This document shows positions 49,841 to 62,759 of a DNA stretch of 64,000 nucleotides, in pieces. A model generated the notes under the pieces. The model was not told where the DNA came from. It made no database searches and saw nothing but the letters and a program-made list of their open reading frames with translations. Position 1 is the first letter of the stretch. Every line of letters begins with the position of its first letter. The position numbers were made by a program, and so were the translations under genes. The DNA is from the human T2T-CHM13v2.0 reference genome, Homo sapiens, in assembly GCF_009914755.1 (NCBI RefSeq), contig NC_060931.1; one strand, written 5' to 3'.

Positions 49841-51062
49841 AGGACTAGGATTCCAAGGAGTGAAAGATGAAGCCGCTGGGTGCAGCGGAGGGGGTGGAGA
49901 AATCTGGGTCAGTGAACAGGAGAGACTGGTAGTGGGGGACACCAGGACAGGGCCGGGGGCAAGGAAGAGATGCAAGCGGCCAGGAGAGGAGTCTTACCAG
50001 TGGCTGGGCCACAAGGTGTACTCTCACCAGCAGGTAAAGAGGTGAGGGGGCTGGCAGCTGGGAGGAGCTATGCACCATCTGCAAGACTGATCTATTTTGT
50101 AGGGCAAAGTAGGCCCCAGGGCCGACTGTCCTTGTTCTCCTGTCACTGTGAAAAGGCACACAACTTGCCCACTTAGAGCAGAGTCCCCCACTCCTGCCCC
50201 TCCCACCCTGCCAAAGACCCCTGGACCACCCAAGCACAGGGTAAGGGGGATGGGGTGGTAGGTCAATGTCAGCACTGGGGGCTTGGATCCAAGCCCCTTC
50301 TCCTGCACCAACACCAAAGTAGGAACAAACCTCAGTGAGGCTTTGGCTTTTGACAGCCTGAAGGCTTTCCACAGGTGCCAGGCGAACTCAGCTGTTTCTT
50401 GCATCAGAAGAGTGGAGACCTCCTGCCTGTGACCCCCTCCCCTCCCAGGTCATGATCCCTCAGGTCCTCAGAGAACAGAGGAGCAGCTGAGGGGCCTGTG
50501 GCAGGGGGAGGACCACAACAAAGCCACCAGGTCAGCACCCACATAAGGCCTAGTCAGGGTGTCGATGCATAAAGGAAGACACCTTATGCTCCCTCTGGAG
50601 CCCCAGTACAGGCCCCCAGCTCACCTCTGCAGGCCTCTCCACTCCCTGCAGCCAAGAGCTGGGAAGGAACCTCATGGCAATCTCTGGCTCCTCCTCTCAG
50701 CCCTCCTCCCTGTCTCCTCTGAGATCTGAGGCCTTCGTGATGTAAGTGGCAGGACTGCTAAATGGCAATGTTGGTGCTGGGGCCACTTAACTCCCTGACC
50801 TGTGAGAGAGCCTGTCTGGGCAGGGAGGCTGGGGGCAGGGGCTGGTGGGGGACATGCTCTGTGCCTGGGGCTGCTGGGGGAGAAGAGAGGAGCCCTTCCG
50901 AAGCCCTCCATTCCTTTTCTCTCTCCCCTGGCCCCCCGGCCCTCTCCTGGGTATTGGGTGGGCTGCTGGATATCTGGAGTGCAGGCTATGCGTGCAAACA
51001 GCTTGTGGTCTGCATGTTTCTGCGCTCCCCACCCCACCACAAGCCGAGCCCTGATCATGTGG

Positions 51063-51076
51063 CCTGTAGGGGGCGC
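51063..51076 (+). promoter_or_regulatory. CTCF motif (forward)
   Basis: TGGCCTGTAGGGGGCGCTA versus consensus TGGCCACCAGGGGGCGCTA. Confidence 0.65.
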
Positions 51077-51723
51077 TAGTGGAACCCTTTCTGAGACCTG
51101 CCTAGGAATGAGGGCTTGGGTGAAGGGGACACACCCGAAATACTAGTGCCTCCAGCTATTGGGGCAGATTGCTCAAAACACACTTCCTGTTTTACAAGGT
51201 GTAATAAGTCATTCATCGAACTCCACCCCAAATTCTGAAATCCTAATAAAGTGTCTGGATCAGCCTTCCCTGGCAATGGAGAGAGCTGTGTTCCAGTTCT
51301 GCATTGGCACAGCTGCGAAGGCCGCTCCACCCTCCTTCTTCCAGGCGGGGTCACTGCTGGTTGATAGGCGAGTGAAGTCATGTCTTTGAGGGCCAAGGGC
51401 AGGAAAAGCTGGGAGGGCAGAGACCACAGAGACGCAGGGCTGGCAGAAGCATGGAAGGTGACGAGGAAGCCCAGCGGAGGAGTGCTCACTTCATCCCGGC
51501 GCCCTGAGCAAGGCCATTCCCGGCCCCCGAGGGACCAGACCCTGCCAGGGAAAGGAGAGTGGGCAGCAACTCCCCCCACCCCCCGCCAGGCCCTCACAGC
51601 CAGTGCCAGGGGGTGAAGCTGGTGGGGGGAAAGTGGAGAATGACATATTGTGGGAGCTCCAAAGACACAAATCATTGAACGAATGCAGAGGAGAAAGGGA
51701 CAGAAGTAGGCCCAGGTCCTCTA

Positions 51724-52300
<577 letters not shown>

Positions 52301-53089
52301 GACAGCAGGGTTGCACTGCCATCCCCACCCATGTCCCTGCACATATTCAGCTGCCTTGGTGACCTGCCTTGGCTTAAGGTGGCCCAGAAAGTTCCCCTGC
52401 CTTCTGGCCAGACAGATCTGAGTGGGTCCTTCTGGAATGCACAACAGGTGCGGAGTGGGGGCAGCATGGAGCAGCCTCTCATCTCACTCCCTCTCCACCG
52501 TCCCCCGCCTCATCCCCTGGTGCTGAGTGAGCCCTGGTGACAGGCAGGCTCAGAGAAGGGAGCCCAGGAAAGGGAGGATCAGGGGCAGCCCAGAACGGGG
52601 TTATCTTGATCCTTGGAGGTGGAGCTTCCGCTGAAAATCTGGTGGAAGTTCTGCTCCCTCTGCCAGAAAAATGGACAGACACACAATGTTGCAAATATGG
52701 CAGGGGAATCATAGATCCTCCAGAGCCCACTTGTCCCACAGCCCACAAAATCCTCTGTTTCCTTCTACTCTGATGGTGCCTGAGTGCCTCCTCCTCCACT
52801 CCCCATGCCAGGGCTCCTCTGCCTCAGGGAGCTTGTAGGCCAGACCAAGATGCAAACCCAAGGGAAGCAAGCCAAAGCAGAGGGTCCATGGGGGAGCTCC
52901 AGGAGGGAGGGGTTTATTTCCAATCTGGGAGGCAACCTAGAGATTGCAACAAGGCCACAGGCTTTGGAGTCACCTAGGCTTGTCATCTGTACTGTGGGGA
53001 TCCATGCTGCCCACAAGGATAGCATGAGATCATGGTAACGTGTTCAGAACTACTTCCTCTAGTTAGGGAAGAGGTCGCCATCCTAGCTA

Positions 53090-53540
53090 GGTGTGACCCC
53101 CACAAAGATGTCCATAATGCAGGACCTGTGAATGTGTTACCTTACATGCCAAAAGGAACTCTGCAGGTGTGATTAAGTTGAAGGTTTTGAGATGAGGAGA
53201 TTATCAGAGTTTATCAGGTGGGCCCAATATAACCACAAGGGTCTTTATAAGGGAGACAAGAGTGTCAGAGTCAGTGCAGGTGTGAAAATGGAAGCAGGGT
53301 AGAAAGACAGGGAAATTTAAAGATGTTATGTAGCTGGTTCTGAAGATGGAGGAAGGGACAGCCGCTAGAAGTCAGCAAAGGCAAGGAAATGGGTTCTCCC
53401 CTAGAGCCTCCAGGAGGAATGCAGCCCGGAGGACCCACTGTAGACTTCTGGCCTCCAGAACAGTAAGATTGTACATTTCTGTTGCTTTCAGCTGCTAAAT
53501 GTATAGTGATTTGTTACAGCAGCCAAAGGAAACTAATACA
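53090..53540 (+). mobile_element. MLT1 solo LTR
   Basis: CCTGTGAATGTGTTACCTTACATG..TTTGTTACAGCAGCC..GGAAACTAATACA. Confidence 0.82.
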
Positions 53541-54062
53541 CTGGGCCTTGTCAGGTAGAAGCCAGAGCCTGCTGTGGGGCAGCTGTGGGGCAGGAGGGAG
53601 GTCAGAGGGGAATTTTGCAGAAGGGCAGGGCAAGGGCTGAGCCTGCAATGAGAGGGAGGAGGGGCCAGGCCCTGAGTGCTCAGCCTATGACCTCAGCCTT
53701 GGCCAGCTGAAGCTGCCCTGGCACCCGGATGCCTGTCAGCCTGGGCTTATATGCCTGACTGGACCAGAAAGAGATCCCTGTGTAGCCAGTCCTGAGGCAA
53801 GGGTGGGGGTGTGACAAAGAAGTTTGATGCCAGAGAGGGAGTCCAATCAGCCCCAGGGCTGCAGAGCACACAAGGGGAGGGAGGAGGTTGGTGGGGCTGG
53901 CACGGGGCCCTGTCGCCCAGGGCCCCCTGCCAGCTCAGTCCTTCTCTACCTCTCTCCTACTGACAGGAAGAACCTCCACCCCACTCTTCTCTTTCCTTTC
54001 TCCATCCCCAGGCTATTCTGCCCTACCCCGGGAGAGTGGGAGGGGCAGGGACTTTGGGGCTA

Positions 54063-55115
<1,053 letters not shown>

Positions 55116-55129
55116 CAGGCTCTATGCAT

Positions 55130-56150
<1,021 letters not shown>

Positions 56151-56160
56151 TGGCAGGGAG

Positions 56161-56682
56161 TGTGATGTTAATTATATGTGTCAACTTGACTGGGCCACAG
56201 AGTGCCCAGGTATTTGTTTAAATATATTTCTGAGTGTGTCTGGGAGGGTGTTTCTGGATGAGATTTACATTTGAATCAGCTGATTGAATAAAGCAGACAC
56301 CCCTCCCCAATGTGGGTGGCCCTCATCCAATCCATTGAAGGCTTGAATAGAACAAAAAAGGCTGAGTAAGAGAAAATCTGCTCTTTCTGCCTGTCTTCAA
56401 GCCGGGACATCAGTCTTCTCCTGCCTTTGGACTCTGGACTTACACCATCAGCTCTACTGGTTCTCAGGCCTTTGGACTCGAACTGGAACTACACCATTGG
56501 CTCTCCTGGGTCTCCAGCTTGGCAACTGCAGGTCTTGGGACTTGTCAGCCTCCACAATGATGTGAGCCAATTCTTTATAACAGTCTGTCTCTCTCTCTGT
56601 CTCTCCACAAACACATGCATTTTTTTTTTAGAAAAATATTGTATGATTTGTTCTGTTTCTCTGGAGAACCCAGACTACTACA
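56161..56682 (+). mobile_element. MLT2 (ERVL) solo LTR with perfect 5-bp TSD GGGAG
   Basis: TGTGATG..TGTGTCAACTTGACTGGGCCAC ... CTGGAGAACCCAGACTACTACA; GGGAG at 56156-56160 and 56683-56687. Confidence 0.9.
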
Positions 56683-57617
56683 GGGAGTCCGAAATTCAGC
56701 ATTGGTTATGGTCAGTGTGAGATGTGGAGTAGGCAGGGAGAGGAGAGCTCAAGGGAGTAGAGAGTAGGTAATTGAACTGGATTTGAATCCTCCAAATCTG
56801 TCCCTTGACCTACTTGAAGTCGGTTTTCTCCTCTGCACAGTCCCTGGAATGGAATCCTTTCCTGCATCTCCTCTCCCCAGGTAGTCCTGGATTCCAGCTT
56901 TGTGTCCTCCTTGGCAAGCTCCCCTGTCCTGAAACTGCAGAGGGGCCACATGACCTCCACAGTCTGAACTGCTATTCCCTGTCCCTCTGTGGTCCTTTGC
57001 CAGGAGAAGCCCCCACCACGAGGTCAGGGGAGACCCTGAGCAGAGGAGTCTCCCCCCACCAGGCCAAGCAAGGAAAGAGCTCAGCTGGAAGGGGCTGGAT
57101 TCATTCTCGCCTCTCTCCAGCCACTCCTGCAGCTCCTGGCTTCCTCGCAAGCCTCTCCATCAGCGCCCTCACAGGGCTTGGACACTTCACAGCTGCTGGG
57201 AGAAAGAATGGAATGGACCCAAGGACATCCAGGCAGGCCCAGGCCCTACCTGCTGGCGACTCGGGCAAGTCACTTTCTCTCTCCGAGTCTCGTTGTCCCA
57301 TTCATCATAAAGGAACAGGCATTACTGCTATAGGGTTGCTGAGGATAAGATGCACCTTGTACAGCATAGTAATGAACGGCGGCAGAAAACAGGTCTTTTA
57401 GGCTCCTCTCCCCACCTAGCCAGCCTCTTTCCTTTCTCGGAGATGAGATTAGTTTACCCGCAAGCCCCGCCTGTCCTTTGGAAGCCAAATTTTACTACGG
57501 ATGCAGGCAACCAGGGAATGGTTGCCAAGGGCCGGACTTTGAAAGGAAGGGCTGCTTGTTGCCTAGGAAACTGCCCCACTCCGGGTTCCCTGGGGTCCCA
57601 ACGGTCGATGGGTCTTG

Positions 57618-57631
57618 GCGCCATCTGCCGG
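57618..57631 (-). promoter_or_regulatory. CTCF motif (reverse) in a locally CpG-enriched patch
   Basis: CCGGCAGATGGCGC on - strand fits CCRSYAGRKGGCRS. Confidence 0.6.
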
Positions 57632-59341
57632 ACACAGTACCACACTGCTTCTGAAGCTCCTAGACCCGGAGTCCCACAGCCTGTAGCAGGGAACACTCCT
57701 CTTCCCCTGCCCATTCTCCCCCACGACATCTCCACATAAAAGCTCTTTGCTCCTTTTGCCGCCAGGCTTTCCCAGAGATTAGAGGCATGGGAAGGAGTTG
57801 AAGTACTGTGGAGGGTGGGAGCGATGTCTTTCTCTACACAGAAAGAAAGAGGACAGGGAAGCAGGACTCCTGGTAGCCTGAGGTCCAAGAAAGTCTCTCC
57901 CTTAATTGCTTTCCTGAGGCTTGCCATCCACTTGGAAACTTTGTTTCCCACTATCTGCCTTTCCACAGGGAGGGAGGCATGGAAATGAAGAGGTTAAAGT
58001 TGAGGTAGGAGAGTGACATGTCGGTCACCGCAAGGTCCTGGTGCAACATCCCCTCCTGGGGAACCACTCAACTCCCACTGCTCCTAGACCGGAGTCCCCT
58101 TTTCTTCTCTGGGAGAACCTTCCTACCCACCTGACAGTTGCCAGGTGAACCCCTTGGAGCCTCAGATCGTCCTGCCCACTGGCAGAAGAGGGAGAAGCAG
58201 AAAGGTGCCTACTATGAGACTAGGATTCCTGAGTTCAATACCCACCCAAGGCAGACCCTGGGCTTGGCCACCCTGAGATCAGCCTGCCCTGAAAGGTGAA
58301 GGGGGAAGTGAAATATCTGAGGTTGGGATGCCTGGGGGTGGGGGTGTGCCTCTTTCCCTTTTAGGATCACAAGTAGAGAAACTGAGGCACAGAGTGAGCA
58401 AAAGGCTGCTCTTTACCTGTTCCAGGCTAATACCACATCTTGCTATCCAGATGTCCCCTCTCCAATTCTAGCTGGGCTGGGGTGGGGATGGGGGGCAAAG
58501 TTGACTTGGAAGCTGACACCCTGGCCCTCAGCCCAGAAGCTGATGTTGTCAATGGGCTTAAGAGCAGGTGGAGCAGGAGGCTGGGGACCAGGTCTCCTGG
58601 GTCCCTAAACCCACCTGTTTTCCCTCCTGAGCTGAGCCAGAAGGGTAAGCAAGGAGGAGGCTGGTGATGATGATGCCTGCACCCTGCAAGTGAGAAGCCA
58701 TGCCCTGAGGACAATAGATGTGAGAGGTGGGGCTGGGTGCTCTGGCCTAGAAGAGGCTGCATGTGGCTGGAGGCTCCAACCTGGCCGCTGCCCTCTGTCC
58801 AGGTTCCCTGCCTCCAAACTCTCCTCAGCAGGAAGCAGGAGGGCTTCAGGGGTAAGGTGAGGTGGGCAGGGTTGGCCCCCCAACCTCCTGATTAGCTGAG
58901 TCTGAGTGTCAGGCTATAGTGGGGTCAAAGAGGCTGAGGTTGGAATGTGACCCTTACAAGCCAGAAGGGATCCTGAAAGAATAAAAAGCTCCAAGGAAGG
59001 GGAGAGGGAGGAGCTACCTCCCCCAACCCACCACGTCCCAATGGCTGGGTCCTTCCTCTCCAGCCCTGACTCCAGATGTGAGGAGAGAGGTGGAAGGAGA
59101 GACTGAGGGGAGCTGAGTGCCTCACAGCTGGGGCACTGCCCCTGCCTCCCCTCCACACTGACTGCCACTTCCTGACTGGCACTGGAGCCACAGAAGCTGA
59201 AAGGAGCCTCAGAGGGCTAGTCCAGTCCCCCTGAATGATTGGGTCATGCCATCTGAGGGCCCTGTTCGCAGTCCTTGGAGCCTGGGAGACAGTGAGGCCA
59301 GAGGTGAGGGCCACCCACTCCTCCTCCTCTTGGTCCCCCAG

Positions 59342-59796
59342 GGGGCACCAGAGATGGCCCCACTGCTACCCCCTGTGAGAGTAACTTGACTCTCCTGCTC
59401 CACATGCCTGCACTGAAGCCCAGGCCTCCCAGTCCCCTGGCTCTACCTGCTGCTCCTGTTCCTGCCCTGGCTGGGGGCGAAGCCAGCTGCCTAGGCTAAG
59501 TCCCTGCAGCTCCACCTGGCCTGCAGCTTTGACGCGCTGGCTGGGAGAGTGCACTGAGCCATTTCTTTTGCAGTGGCCTGGTGCAGGCTGCCTGAATGCT
59601 AATGTTGCTGCAAGGACCCTGGGGCACTGGCTGGTTGCACGCTGGCAGTGCACCCTCTCCCTGGGTGGCTACACCTTTGCGCAGATGCCGCTGCCCATGA
59701 GCTGGAACCTGGGTCACCACAGCAGCGTGGTTCAGCGCCTGTGGGGCCACATCTTCCACAATCTGGTGGTGAGCAGCCTGGATCACATGGTGCTGG
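59342..59796 (+). pseudogene. Disabled TMEM53-like/DUF829 gene, first coding exon (ATG 59354)
   Basis: Acceptor CTCCTCTTGGTCCCCCAG; Kozak GAGATGG; translation MAPLLPPVRVT*LSCSTCLH*SPGLPVPWLYLLLLFLPWLGAKPAA*AKSLQLHLACSFDALA/ESALSHFFCSGLVQAA*MLMLLQGP/GALAGCTLAVH/LSLGGYTFAQM...QRLWGHIFHNLVVSSLDHMVLG; donor G|GTGTGT, phase 1. Confidence 0.85.
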
Positions 59797-60106
59797 GTGT
59801 GTGCCAGGGAGGGGTGAGGGGGTACCTGTGCTGCACAGACCTGGCTGGACCTCAGGGGGGCAGGTAGTACTGCTGACCAAGGCATCTCTGATCTGCATTT
59901 CTCCCAAATGTGGCTCTGGGCTGCCTCTGAATATCCACCTGCTGTGGCCTTCCTACCCAGAGTGTCTCTCCCTTTGTCCCACTTAAGCCTCCTGCACTGT
60001 GGCTGAATTTGCATCTCACAGTAAGTGTGTTTCCTGAGTCCAGACTTACATGCGTTTATTACCCAGGCAAGGGGAGGGCCCATAGGACACAGTAAGACTC
60101 ATTTAC

Positions 60107-60388
60107 TCATGCCTGTAATCCCAGCACTTTGGGAGGCCGAGGCGGGCGGATCACCTGAGGTCCGGAGTTCAAGACCAGCCTAGCCAACATGGTGAAACCC
60201 TATCTCCACTAAAAATACAAAAATTAGCTGGGCGTGGTGGTGGGCACCTGTAGTCTCAGCTACTCCGGAGGCTGAGCCAGGAGAATCGCTTGAACCCGGG
60301 AGGTGAAGGTTGCAATGAACCTAGATTGTGCCACTGCCCTCCAGCCTGGGTGACAGAGGGAGATTCTATCTCAAAAAAAAAAAAAAAA
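60107..60388 (+). mobile_element. AluS in the pseudogene intron, TSD AAGACTCATTTACT
   Basis: TSD at 60093-60106 and 60387-60400. Confidence 0.93.
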
Positions 60389-61653
60389 GACTCATTTACT
60401 GAGCACCTGTAACCTTCCTCGTTCGTTCTCACATAATCCTTGCAATGAAGCCTGGAGGTGGGTGCTATGTCATCTGCTTTTCTTAGGACGCGTACTGTGG
60501 CAAGTCTCAGACCATATAACTAGATGCATGGAATTCCTCTAAAACAGTAATTCTCTAACTTTAGAACGTATCAGAATTGAGCGGCTGAGTAGCAACCCAG
60601 AGGCTCAGACCCCATCCTACTATGGCAAGCCTAGGACTTGTTATTAGCTCTCCAGGTGATTCTGACATGCACCAAACTTGCAGAGCCACTGTGCTAAAAC
60701 CTCCTCTAGAAGGGCCATACTAATGCTACCATACCTTAAGGTGGAGATCACTGACTTACAAGGTAATTCATCCATTGGTCAGCTCTATTAACCAACTAGG
60801 TTTAGTTCAAAACGGAACTTCTCCCTTTGAACCACTCACGCTCTTGATTCAGAGTGACTTGGCATTTATCTGAAAACCCTTAGATCTTTCCCATCTCAAC
60901 AGCTGGTCAAGGTGCTTCCTGCATGACTTTTGTAAACCAATGCACAAGACAAACCATGAAACAAGACAAACCATGAAACCATGTTTTGATCCATCCCCTC
61001 TCATCTTCAACCATCCCCTGGGACCTGGGCATTGTCCTCCCTCCCCGCTGGGTCACCTCTGACTCAGGTGCTCATCAAGGCCAGATTCCAGGGCACAAGG
61101 CCTCCCAGGACTGTCAATGACCCATTCACTTTGCAAGAACTCCTGGAGCAGATGTTGAACCAGCTCTGAGCCCACCTGATAGTCCTGCTGTCCAGCTCTT
61201 TCCTTTTTGTCCCTAGAAGCACAAAGCTAAAAAATGATGCAGTGAAAGGCTGGCCCCTGAGCAAGTAGCTCTTTGGCAGAAGGGGCCTGGGAGAAGGCAG
61301 GTATTAGCATGGCATGGCAGCAGGGAGCTGAGGGGCCCCTCCCTTAGCCATAGGAGTGTATCCAGATCTTCTCCTTGGTCTGCTCATTCCCGCCACCTGA
61401 GCATCCCCTGGCCATCTTCCGTGCCTCTGCCCACTTGAGTGGTATCTGTACCTTCGATGGACAGCTTTGTGCCCACTGCCCAACAACAGAGGCACAGGAA
61501 GGCAATGTGAATGTTCCAAAACCCCTCAACTCTAGGGGTATTCAGCAGCCCACGTGACAGTACTGTCTCCACCAGCCGGGGTTGAGGCTGGGAGGCAGGT
61601 CCTGAGCCACATACAAACAGTGGGAGCTGACCCACTCTGCTTTGTACCTACAG

Positions 61654-61988
61654 GTGTGTTTCGGCAGATGAGACCACAGGCGCTGGCCATGCTGTACTTC
61701 CACCTGTGCCCTGGCTGCACCATGTGGCATGATGAGGCTGCGGAGGGCGTTTTCCGGCAGCTGGGTGTGAGGCCCCGATGCTGGAATTCTACAGCCATGA
61801 TGACCCCTCAACAATGCTGCCTGGCTGCAGGAGTTGCTGAGTGGCTTGCAGTAGGTGAAGCCTGGGAGACCTCCTGACATGGGGCCCACCTGCACCAGCA
61901 CACCCCCACCCCACCCCCAGTACCTCAACACCCTCAAACCTTCCTGGGGAGGCAGGGCCTGGTGCCATACCCCCCAGCCCAACTCTGA
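61654..61988 (+). pseudogene. Disabled TMEM53-like/DUF829 gene, last coding exon
   Basis: CTGAC branch point, polypyrimidine tract and CAG acceptor, phase 1; GVFRQMRPQALAMLYFHLCPGCT...VFRQLGVR/APMLEFYSHDDP/NAAWLQELLSGLQ*/AWETS*HGAHLHQH/QYLNTL/QTFLGRQGLVPYPPAQL*. Confidence 0.85.
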
Positions 61989-62039
61989 TGGGGCTCCAGC
62001 CACCCAATGGACAGGGCATACAGACAGGATAGTGGAGGC

Positions 62040-62759
62040 GTTGAGACCTGCTTGATTTATTCCAAGTATTTAATACACAATGACGCAACTGTGATCCCAA
62101 GTGTGCAAAGTTAAAGCCTTCGACTGCAGCTGAGGAGAAGGGAGGAATGGTTCACCTGGGGACGGTGGTGAGTCAGGAATGACAGGCAGGCGGCCATGAC
62201 CAGGGCAGTCTCCTACCCATGGCCAGGGACAGGGGAGCGGCCTGAGGAGCAGGACCCAAGGGTAGCCCAGGGCCGGGGAAGGGGGCAGAGACCTCCCCTT
62301 GGCCTAGGTCAGGAGCTCAGAAGTGCCACATGGCTGAGGGGCAGCGGCCCGGGAAGGGCCAGAGGCAGGGCCAGGAGAGCACCATTTCCTGGGAGGCTAG
62401 GGGCAGGGAGGTGCCCTACAGGAGAAGCCAGGAGGGGCCGCCTGCCCCTGGGGTGGGGGCCAGGCTGGAGCAGGCTGCAGCAAGAAAGACCTGAGGCAGG
62501 CGCAGGGCCTGAGAGCCTGGCTGGCTGGGCTCGGAGGGGGGCTCCCAGGGCAGCCTGGCCCCGGGAGCAGTCCTGACTCTGCAGGGGATGCCGAGTGAGG
62601 GGCAGCAGTCCCCTCAGGACCTCCCCTCCTCTCTGCCTGGAAAGGAGCTGGAGAACCCGTAGTGCAAATCTGTGGACCACTCAGTTATGGAGGGAGGCTG
62701 TGCCCAAAAGTGGACACTGGGGTGCATCCCCTCCACCACCTCGGCCTCCACCGCTGTCC
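62040..62759 (-). other. IMPDH1: IMPDH1 3' UTR
   Basis: Between the stop codon and tandem poly(A) signals. Confidence 0.85.
62056..62074 (-). terminator. IMPDH1: IMPDH1 poly(A) signals ATTAAA (62069-62074) and AATAAA (62056-62061)
   Basis: TTTAAT and TTTATT on + strand. Confidence 0.88.

What the first reader, a model, noticed from the sequence alone, without database searches (positions are those of the whole stretch)
59342..61988. Hidden lost gene: intron-containing TMEM53-like (DUF829) candidate unitary pseudogene between PRRT4 and IMPDH1
Seen in the sequence: joining frames across stops and frameshifts gives one coherent protein, starting from a Kozak ATG (59354) behind a strong acceptor. 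Motifs in order: LLLLFLPWLGAKP (LPWLG 59462-59476), AKSLQLHLACSFDALA/ES, VH/LSLGGYTFAQM (SLGGYTF 59658-59678), QRLWGHIFHNLVVSSLDHMVLG, an intron, then MLYF, APMLEFYSHDDP, LQELL, WETS*HGAHLHQH, QYLNTL/TFL. The intron (59797-61653; G|GTGTGT ... CTGAC..TTTGTACCTACAG|GT) is phase 1 at both ends. Family knowledge, recalled rather than searched: this motif order (WLG..KY..Y, H.FS.GG, G.I.DS, P.L..YS..D, W..S.H..H...P..Y) is the TMEM53/DUF829 signature. It resembles the second, TMEM53-like paralog of fish and invertebrates more than human TMEM53 itself. Inference: the retained intron argues against a retrocopy and for an ancestral vertebrate gene that died in place. I cannot check whether it is already annotated.
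Basis: partly seen in the sequence, partly recalled or inferred. Interest (0 to 1): 0.92.

Follow-up and report, generated by a model that had tools for sequence, protein, structure and literature searches.

The report
Human fossil of lost peroxisomal enzyme
Between PRRT4 and IMPDH1 the human genome holds the broken two-exon remnant of a gene that is intact in fish, turtles, shrews, camels, deer and the colugo, where it likely makes a peroxisomal ester-cutting enzyme; the annotation given lists only a long non-coding RNA there.

Summary
Confirmed, and taken further. Window 59354-59796 plus 61654-61988 aligns end to end with intact DUF829 proteins of colugo (162/252 identical), camel, deer, tenrec, mole, hedgehog and shrew, and with turtle, amphibian and fish proteins (zebrafish si:dkey-5i3.5). 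It carries five stops and at least four frameshifts, and is the only copy found in the human genome. The intron sits at the same codon in fish, turtle and mammals. The fish gene lies head-to-head with PRRT4, as here. In a tree the human row is sister to colugo, far from TMEM53. This is a unitary pseudogene, likely dead since early primate evolution.

89 of 94 complete orthologs end in a peroxisomal targeting signal (0 of 119 TMEM53). The orthologs lack TMEM53's hydrophobic segment. They fold as an alpha/beta-hydrolase with invariant Ser-Asp-His. The lost product was therefore likely a soluble peroxisomal esterase or thioesterase; this is untested. lncRNA LOC107986845 still uses the old exon-2 acceptor.

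A 2015 paper says the fish gene 'does not exist in human'. I found no report of the remnant. GENCODE could not be checked.

The parts
59325..59341 (+). Pyrimidine tract and AG acceptor in front of the old first coding exon
   Evidence: Sequence. Mole and hedgehog models that read through this spot also show P-Q a few codons before the Met, consistent with a conserved CAG acceptor (inference).
59342..59796 (+). Old coding exon 1 (ATG 59354; residues 1-153 of the ortholog). Stops at 59387, 59414, 59492, 59593; frameshifts near 59544, 59617, 59654; an ambiguous compensating pair near 59432/59449; short in-frame deletions near 59371 and 59574
   Evidence: exon score 354 against chance of about 40
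59658..59660 (+). Codon of the predicted nucleophile Ser (S106 of colugo), still TCC
   Evidence: invariant in 94 of 94 complete orthologs; follows strand 100-105 in the model
59797..61653 (+). Phase-1 intron at the ancestral position; holds an Alu-like insert near 60105-60390 (family recalled) and a RefSeq enhancer at 61124-61625
   Evidence: 23 of 29 incomplete ortholog models diverge right after the same MAxG codon, among them named tree shrew, turtle and loach proteins. TMEM53 has no intron here.
61654..61988 (+). Old coding exon 2 (residues 153-273). 7-codon deletion near 61685, frameshift near 61774, further less certain frameshifts near 61812, 61841, 61917, 61937, stop at 61875, ends AQL-TGA
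   Evidence: exon score 210
61802..61804 (+). Codon of the predicted catalytic Asp (D209 of colugo), still GAC
   Evidence: 94 of 94
61878..61880 (+). Codon of the predicted catalytic His (H241 of colugo), still CAT, directly behind a premature stop
   Evidence: 94 of 94
61977..61988 (+). Relic of the C-terminal peroxisomal signal position (AQL, then stop); orthologs end ARL/SRL/AKL/SKL/AKM
56436..62100 (+). lncRNA LOC107986845 (NR_148338.1): exons 56436-56561, 56881-57264, 61654-62100. It skips old exon 1, uses the old exon-2 acceptor exactly, and overlaps the IMPDH1 last exon antisense by 71 bases
   Evidence: Annotation table supplied with the finding; junctions read

Best explanation
The locus is a broken, two-exon, single-copy remnant (unitary pseudogene) of the vertebrate gene called si:dkey-5i3.5 in zebrafish, whose intact orthologs likely encode a soluble peroxisomal serine hydrolase and which likely died early in primate evolution. 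Shown here: orthology, ancestral intron, lesions, single copy, conserved C-terminal tripeptide, invariant Ser/Asp/His. Predicted: alpha/beta-hydrolase fold. Inferred working of the intact gene: the protein is made in the cytosol, its C-terminal SKL-type signal is bound by PEX5 and carries it into the peroxisomal matrix, and the Ser-Asp-His triad hydrolyses an acyl ester or thioester. I think a fatty-acyl lipid ester or an acyl-CoA is most likely, under a helical lid. Long fish and amphibian isoforms may also go to mitochondria through an Arg-rich, acid-poor N-terminal extension. Inferred fate in humans: constraint was lost after the split from colugo and before the catarrhine ancestor, probably at or before the simian ancestor. 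The sequence then decayed neutrally. An upstream repeat-borne first exon now splices onto the surviving exon-2 acceptor to give the lncRNA. Odds by step: pseudogene of this gene 0.97; peroxisomal 0.85; active hydrolase 0.8; acyl-CoA or lipid ester substrate 0.5; loss older than Old World monkeys plus apes 0.85.
For: Homology: phmmer with the window's own 50 residues finds DUF829 proteins at 65-68% identity. Full-length alignment to colugo, camel, deer and shrew. The read-through scores E 5.7e-52 against a profile of non-mammal orthologs only and E 0.001 against a TMEM53 profile. Tree: inside placental mammals 100/100, sister to colugo 85/87, end branch 0.38 against 0.078. Single copy: protein search gives three local pieces (E<=5.5e-9) and two strays at E 0.06-0.09; DNA of each exon matches only itself. 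Intron position is shared. Synteny: 9 of 10 fish copies in Morini 2015 S6 Table lie head-to-head with PRRT4, the tenth is on a scaffold without it; the human order follows from one inversion of that pair. PTS1: 89 of 94 against 0 of 119. Top 19-residue hydropathy 1.2-1.5 in 8 orthologs against 2.7-3.1 in 3 TMEM53. Model pLDDT 91, pTM 0.90; best folds are esterases, Z 19.9, rmsd 3.2 over 236 residues. Decay: 32 of 141 columns invariant in 8 other mammals are changed in human against 9 of 147 in colugo and 0-12 in leave-one-out; 29 of 32 need one base, 21 a transition; CpG o/e 0.19 against 0.58 in the PRRT4 CDS. Simulation fits 0.07-0.13 substitutions per site with CpG decay and excludes 0.05 or less.
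Against: No direct Pfam hit on any single frame. Synteny in mammals could not be read; it rests on fish tables from one paper. Sister-to-colugo support is below the starred level. I found no report of localisation or activity for any member of this subfamily. Kamoshita 2022 scores the zebrafish PTS1 only as 'twilight zone', with WoLF PSORT favouring extracellular or mitochondrial. Camel and the human relic end AQL, which is not canonical. No solved structure is a significant sequence relative (best E 0.1), and the many hydrolase folds rank close together, so the substrate is a guess. Triad geometry was not measured. The triad is also invariant in TMEM53, whose cited roles are not catalytic. 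Dating uses a simple simulation and recalled primate branch lengths; subtracting about 5 background changes brings 0.05 to the edge of the range. Colugo itself has a raised count (9 of 147).
Confidence: 0.8

Rival explanations
1. The remnant is real, but the intact protein is not a peroxisomal hydrolase: it would be an acyltransferase, a non-catalytic binder like the roles reported for TMEM53, or mainly mitochondrial.
For: The review PMC11878206 (passages) cites only SMAD-blocking and antiviral roles for TMEM53 and groups an acyltransferase with the family. WoLF PSORT favours mitochondria for the long zebrafish isoform. Several long fish and amphibian isoforms have Arg/Lys-rich, acid-free N-termini.
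Against: A canonical PTS1 in 89 of 94 sequences from chimaera to colugo, in six spellings (AKM, AKL, ARL, SKM, SKL, SRL), points to selection on the signal. Ser, Asp and His are invariant in 94 of 94. Colugo, camel and Suncus models start at the Met that matches 59354, without the extension.
Confidence: 0.15
2. The locus is a duplicated or retroposed pseudogene of TMEM53 or of another living human gene.
For: Same Pfam family; the read-through has a faint score against a TMEM53 profile (E 0.001).
Against: TMEM53 proteins score 29-40, at shuffle level, against 478-570 for mammal orthologs. A TMEM53 profile finds nothing in the window. The intron matches the fish-type gene, while TMEM53 carries this stretch in one exon. 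No other human locus matches.
Confidence: 0.01
3. The human locus still makes a useful product from the remnant, either the 91-residue ORF of the lncRNA that enters the old exon-2 frame or the RNA itself acting on IMPDH1.
For: The lncRNA is a curated RefSeq transcript. Its exon 2-3 junction is in frame with the old protein and gives a 91-aa ORF. It overlaps the IMPDH1 3' end antisense by 71 bases.
Against: The ORF lacks the nucleophile, runs through frameshifts, ends before the His and has no targeting signal. The amount and kind of change fit neutral decay. One paper in the library names the lncRNA, once (search listing only).
Confidence: 0.08
4. The gene was lost recently, in apes or only in humans.
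For: GC3 is still 0.74 and all three triad codons survive. No primate genome other than human could be read.
Against: At 0.02-0.03 substitutions per site the simulation gives at most 19 changed columns (97.5th percentile); 32 are seen. There are five stops and about a dozen indels. No primate protein is named among the hits, although lemur and tarsier TMEM53 are in the same database.
Confidence: 0.04

Closest known systems
Zebrafish si:dkey-5i3.5 and its orthologs (NCBI names: TMEM53-A-like, TMEM53-B-like, uncharacterized)
   Same: Same protein end to end, same intron position, head-to-head with PRRT4. [quoted passage not shown] Kamoshita 2022 (PMC8919083; text searched, one supplementary row read) lists it with PTS1 AKM and no human ortholog.
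   Different: The human copy is broken. Neither paper reports a human remnant or mammalian orthologs, and the Kamoshita main text does not mention the gene.
TMEM53 (PF05705, DUF829)
   Same: Same Pfam family, alpha/beta-hydrolase fold, same invariant Ser/Asp/His.
   Different: About 23% identical to the colugo protein; has a strongly hydrophobic segment and no PTS1; different exon structure and chromosome; separate clade.
Human unitary pseudogenes (class as defined in Zhang 2010, PMC2864566, passages read; GULO and UOX as examples are recalled)
   Same: Unprocessed, in ancestral position, disabled, no functional counterpart in the genome.
   Different: That catalogue starts from mouse proteins; no rodent ortholog is named, which would explain a miss (inference). 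Not found by name or place in the supplements of Mudge 2019, Hezroni 2017 or Wen 2023.
lncRNAs that are fossils of protein-coding genes (Hezroni 2017, PMC5577775; title seen and supplements searched)
   Same: An annotated lncRNA on the same strand reuses a splice acceptor and exon of a dead gene.
   Different: None of my six search terms occurs in its four supplements; an entry under an Ensembl id alone would have been missed.
Peroxisomal alpha/beta-hydrolases: yeast Lpx1, fungal acyl-CoA hydrolase MpaH (7dbi), Arabidopsis UP5 At5g44250
   Same: Same fold class and compartment. MpaH matches the model at Z 17.3, rmsd 3.5 over 233 residues. UP5 is in the plant peroxisome proteome with SRL (passages).
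   Different: Works-like comparison only: 12% identity to MpaH, ranked among many esterases. That UP5 is a DUF829 protein is recalled and appears in neither passage.

Membership tests
Unitary pseudogene | Coding sequence disabled | tested here: met
   5 stops; 4 frameshifts seen in all four pairwise alignments, up to 10 in the profile alignment
Unitary pseudogene | No functional copy in the same genome | tested here: met
   the search scores only its best candidates
Unitary pseudogene | Unprocessed: ancestral intron kept | tested here: met
   23 of 29 incomplete ortholog models break at the same codon
Unitary pseudogene | Intact ortholog in other species | tested here: met
   Seven named mammals full length, plus turtles, lizard, newt, frog, lungfish, chimaera, fish
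Unitary pseudogene | Conserved synteny, fish | tested here: met
   Head-to-head with PRRT4 in 9 of 10 fish copies, from a published table
Unitary pseudogene | Conserved synteny, mammals | not testable with these tools
   No vertebrate genome other than human is held
DUF829 / PF05705 | Pfam hit over cut-off on the human sequence itself | tested here: inconclusive
   0 of 8 single-frame pieces; the joined read-through was not scanned against Pfam
DUF829 / PF05705 | Pfam hit on the orthologs | tested here: met
   36.8-41.5 bits against cut-off 25 for three relatives; all 120 listed carry PF05705
TMEM53 proper | Groups with TMEM53 in a tree and has its hydrophobic segment | tested here: not met
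PTS1 peroxisomal matrix protein (intact orthologs) | C-terminal [SAC][KRH][LM] | tested here: met
   89 of 94 complete sequences; 26 of 120 dropped as incomplete
PTS1 peroxisomal matrix protein (intact orthologs) | PEX5-dependent import shown | not testable with these tools
   Needs cell imaging or proteomics
Alpha/beta serine hydrolase (intact orthologs) | Fold | tested here: met
   Predicted model; Foldseek E 5e-10, Z 19.9
Alpha/beta serine hydrolase (intact orthologs) | Ser, Asp, His in order, each at the end of a strand | tested here: met
   S106, D209, H241 invariant 94 of 94, following strands 100-105, 201-206, 231-236
Alpha/beta serine hydrolase (intact orthologs) | Triad geometry and catalytic activity | not testable with these tools

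The most novel reading that the evidence does not exclude
Vertebrates have an unrecognised peroxisomal lipid-ester or acyl-CoA hydrolase, conserved from chimaera to colugo and partly dual-targeted to mitochondria in fish and amphibians. It was lost several times independently in mammals, including early primates and apparently rodents, so both humans and mice lack a peroxisomal activity that zebrafish, shrews and ruminants keep. The human relic is unannotated and survives as the last exon of a repeat-initiated lncRNA.
Probability: 0.4. Interest if true: 0.72.

Novelty: new member of a known kind. Interest (0 to 1): 0.58.

Why it matters
It adds an ancient gene to the list of genes lost on the human lineage, one that mouse-based catalogues would likely miss, and it reclassifies an 'uncharacterized lncRNA' as a transcribed unitary pseudogene. 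It also gives a first functional handle on a misnamed subfamily: databases call these proteins transmembrane protein 53-like, yet they look like soluble peroxisomal hydrolases. That marks a likely difference in peroxisomal lipid metabolism between humans and the zebrafish used to model it, testable by a zebrafish knock-out with lipidomics.

Tried and rejected
Pfam on single frames of the window: nothing. PF05705 over the human genome: only TMEM53. A profile of canonical TMEM53 and tblastn with six TMEM53 proteins against the window: nothing. Word-index search with the 50-residue piece: only the window's own ORF. N-terminal extensions of 11 long orthologs against window 50001-59345: scores 31-54 against controls 28-48, no upstream coding exon found. 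PDB sequence search with the family profile: best E 0.1. Atlas searches: DUF829 clusters, then generic hydrolases under 0.92, no substrate clue. P0124, P0128 and P0130 are chance hits (repeats, an ice-binding protein) and were dropped. Not in print as far as searched: TMEM53+pseudogene (4 papers, listings only); unitary pseudogene+IMPDH1 (0); four-term search (0); LOC107986845 (1, listing); dkey-5i3.5 (1); DUF829+peroxisom (1); TMEM53+paralog+peroxisom (2, one searched); supplements of PMC6886504 (9 files, file 1 unread; hg38 positions recalled), PMC5577775 and PMC10195156. The library lacks most subscription journals and no GENCODE, Ensembl or TOGA track was available, so prior annotation there is open. 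A PEX5 complex prediction was not run, as a textbook pair would pass by likeness.
Full report
Observation. The link appeared with an index-free search using the window's own 50 residues 59649-59798. It returned 10 proteins: the window's own ORF, six relatives and three chance hits. Three relatives are DUF829 over the cut-off.

Orthologs. A search with one of them gave 207 proteins, 120 listed, all marked PF05705. Named mammals are Suncus, Sorex (C-terminus cut short), mole, hedgehog, camel, deer, tenrec, colugo and tree shrew (exon 1 only). Beyond them come turtles, a lizard, a newt, a frog, lungfish, chimaera and many fish, several named si:dkey-5i3.5. A frameshift-aware alignment of the two exons covers colugo residues 1-272 with 162 of 252 identical, and camel 1-273 with 168 of 248. 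The colugo score is 570, against at most 58 in 300 shuffles and at most 52 in 65 other window chunks. Other mammals score 478-566, non-mammals 185-282, TMEM53 29-40. In a tree of 32 rows the human read-through sits inside placental mammals (100/100), sister to colugo (85/87, below the starred level), on a branch of 0.38 against 0.078, and far from the TMEM53 clade.

Lesions. There are five stops (59387, 59414, 59492, 59593, 61875). Four frameshifts appear in all four pairwise alignments (near 59544, 59617, 59654, 61774). Up to six more are alignment-dependent, and there are several in-frame indels, including seven codons near 61685.

Unitary, not a copy. A protein search of the human genome gives three pieces of this locus and two strays at E 0.06 and 0.09. 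The DNA of each exon matches only itself. Of 29 incomplete ortholog models, 23 leave the family sequence right after the same MAxG codon, among them named tree shrew, turtle and loach proteins, so the intron is ancestral. TMEM53 carries the same stretch in one exon. Mammalian models read G-E-C there and human reads G-V-C, which implies one change in the donor (inference). Morini 2015 (PMC4422726; passages, S3 rows and S6 Table read) places the fish gene in the leptin region and states it 'does not exist in human'. In S6, 9 of 10 fish copies lie head-to-head with PRRT4 and the tenth is on a scaffold without it. Gar has RBM28(-), gene(-), PRRT4(+); human has RBM28(-), PRRT4(-), remnant(+), which is one inversion of the pair. 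IMPDH1 is not in that table, and synteny in mammals could not be read.

Date. At columns invariant in eight other mammals, human differs at 32 of 141, colugo at 9 of 147, and the eight themselves at 0-12 in leave-one-out. 29 of the 32 need one base change and 21 a transition. CpG is depleted, 0.19 against 0.58 in the PRRT4 coding sequence. Neutral simulation with tenfold CpG decay fits 0.07-0.13 substitutions per site; 0.05 gives at most 26 changes and 0.03 at most 19. Without CpG decay the fit is about 0.11-0.18. Against recalled branch lengths (about 0.03 to the catarrhine, 0.055 to the simian and 0.12 to the primate ancestor) the gene died before the catarrhine ancestor, probably at or before the simian one, and after the colugo split. 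Subtracting about five background changes brings the simian ancestor to the edge of the range.

Other losses. No primate, rodent, lagomorph, carnivore, bat, horse, marsupial, monotreme, bird, crocodile or snake is named among the 120 listed hits. Mammals score 204 bits or more and the list runs down to 128, so an annotated therian ortholog among the 611 candidates should show, unless hidden in a 90% cluster (camel has 11 members, deer 37) or outside 109-349 residues. Birds could be among the 87 unlisted. Four unnamed relatives look decayed or cut short. P0123, P0126 and P0129 read straight through the site of the human frameshift near 59654, and P0125 breaks at a different place, which suggests independent losses.

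What the protein did. 94 of 120 subfamily sequences are complete; 89 end in a canonical PTS1 (AKM 56, AKL 12, ARL 10, SKM 6, SKL 4, SRL 1) and five do not (AQL, DIM, EKM, SKI, ENM). Of 119 complete TMEM53, none does. The human relic ends AQL, like camel. Peak hydropathy is 1.2-1.5 in eight orthologs and 2.7-3.1 in three TMEM53, so this subfamily looks soluble. The colugo model (pLDDT 91, pTM 0.90, 99 sequences) matches alpha/beta-hydrolases, mostly esterases, at Foldseek E 5e-10 and Z 19.9; the peroxisomal acyl-CoA hydrolase MpaH ranks 12th at Z 17.3. S106, D209 and H241 follow strands and are invariant in 94 of 94; all three codons survive in human. A 2024 review suggests DUF829 proteins may be esterases or lipases (PMC11878206, passages). 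Kamoshita 2022 lists the zebrafish protein in a supplementary table with PTS1 AKM, rated 'twilight zone', no transmembrane domain and no human ortholog, with WoLF PSORT favouring extracellular or mitochondrial; the main text does not name it. Several long fish and amphibian isoforms begin with Arg/Lys-rich, acid-free stretches, so dual targeting is possible. I commit to a PEX5-imported matrix serine hydrolase of acyl esters or thioesters. The import, the activity and the substrate are all inferred.

Today's transcript. LOC107986845 exon 3 starts at 61654, the old acceptor, and runs to 62100, overlapping the last IMPDH1 exon antisense by 71 bases. Its first exon lies in a repeat with at least 40 genome matches at 73-100% identity, itself included (LTR family recalled, not tested). 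Its exon 2 ends in a GC donor. The splice is in frame with the old protein and yields a 91-residue ORF without nucleophile, His or targeting signal. I read this as a transcribed relic with no evidence of function.

Known or new. The class is known: a transcribed unitary pseudogene. The supplied RefSeq table shows only the lncRNA. Ten library searches and the supplements of three catalogues (PMC6886504, PMC5577775, PMC10195156; term searches only) show no report of the remnant or of the subfamily's conserved PTS1 (66-68, 72). Zhang 2010 starts from mouse proteins (passages). GENCODE, Ensembl and TOGA could not be consulted, one supplement of PMC6886504 was unreadable, and entries under database ids alone would be missed.

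Noticed in passing
window 56200-56680: The first exon of lncRNA LOC107986845 (56436-56561) lies inside an interspersed repeat with at least 40 genome matches; it looks like an old ERVL-type LTR (recalled), so the lncRNA start may be repeat-derived. The stretch is not among the longest masked stretches listed in the supplied table.
   Followed up: partly
window 57264-57266 and 61654-61877: lncRNA exon 2 ends in a GC donor and splices in frame with the old exon 2, giving a 91-aa ORF.
   Followed up: partly
window 62030-62100: lncRNA 3' end overlaps the IMPDH1 last exon antisense by 71 bases; the only polyA-like hexamer found on the + strand in 61901-62300 is AATACA at 62072.
   Followed up: no
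window 60105-60390: Alu-like insert with A-tail inside the old intron (family recalled); RefSeq enhancer 61124-61625 ends just before the exon-2 acceptor.
   Followed up: no
P0144, P0152, P0156, P0160, P0163, P0166, P0193, P0201, P0235: Long fish and amphibian isoforms carry N-terminal extensions rich in Arg/Lys with 0-1 acidic residues in the first 35, like mitochondrial presequences, while keeping the PTS1.
   Followed up: partly
P0123, P0125, P0126, P0129: Unnamed mammal-like relatives with their own frameshift, deletion, truncation or loss of conserved residues, suggesting other independent decays of this gene.
   Followed up: partly
P0002-P0121: Many mammalian TMEM53 proteins end in Cys-x-x-Cys or similar (VHC, VQC, VRC most common), which resembles a prenylation-type motif (recalled); not examined.
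   Followed up: no
P0143: The colugo ortholog is intact but differs at 9 of 147 otherwise invariant columns, more than mole, camel or deer; constraint may already be relaxed.
   Followed up: partly
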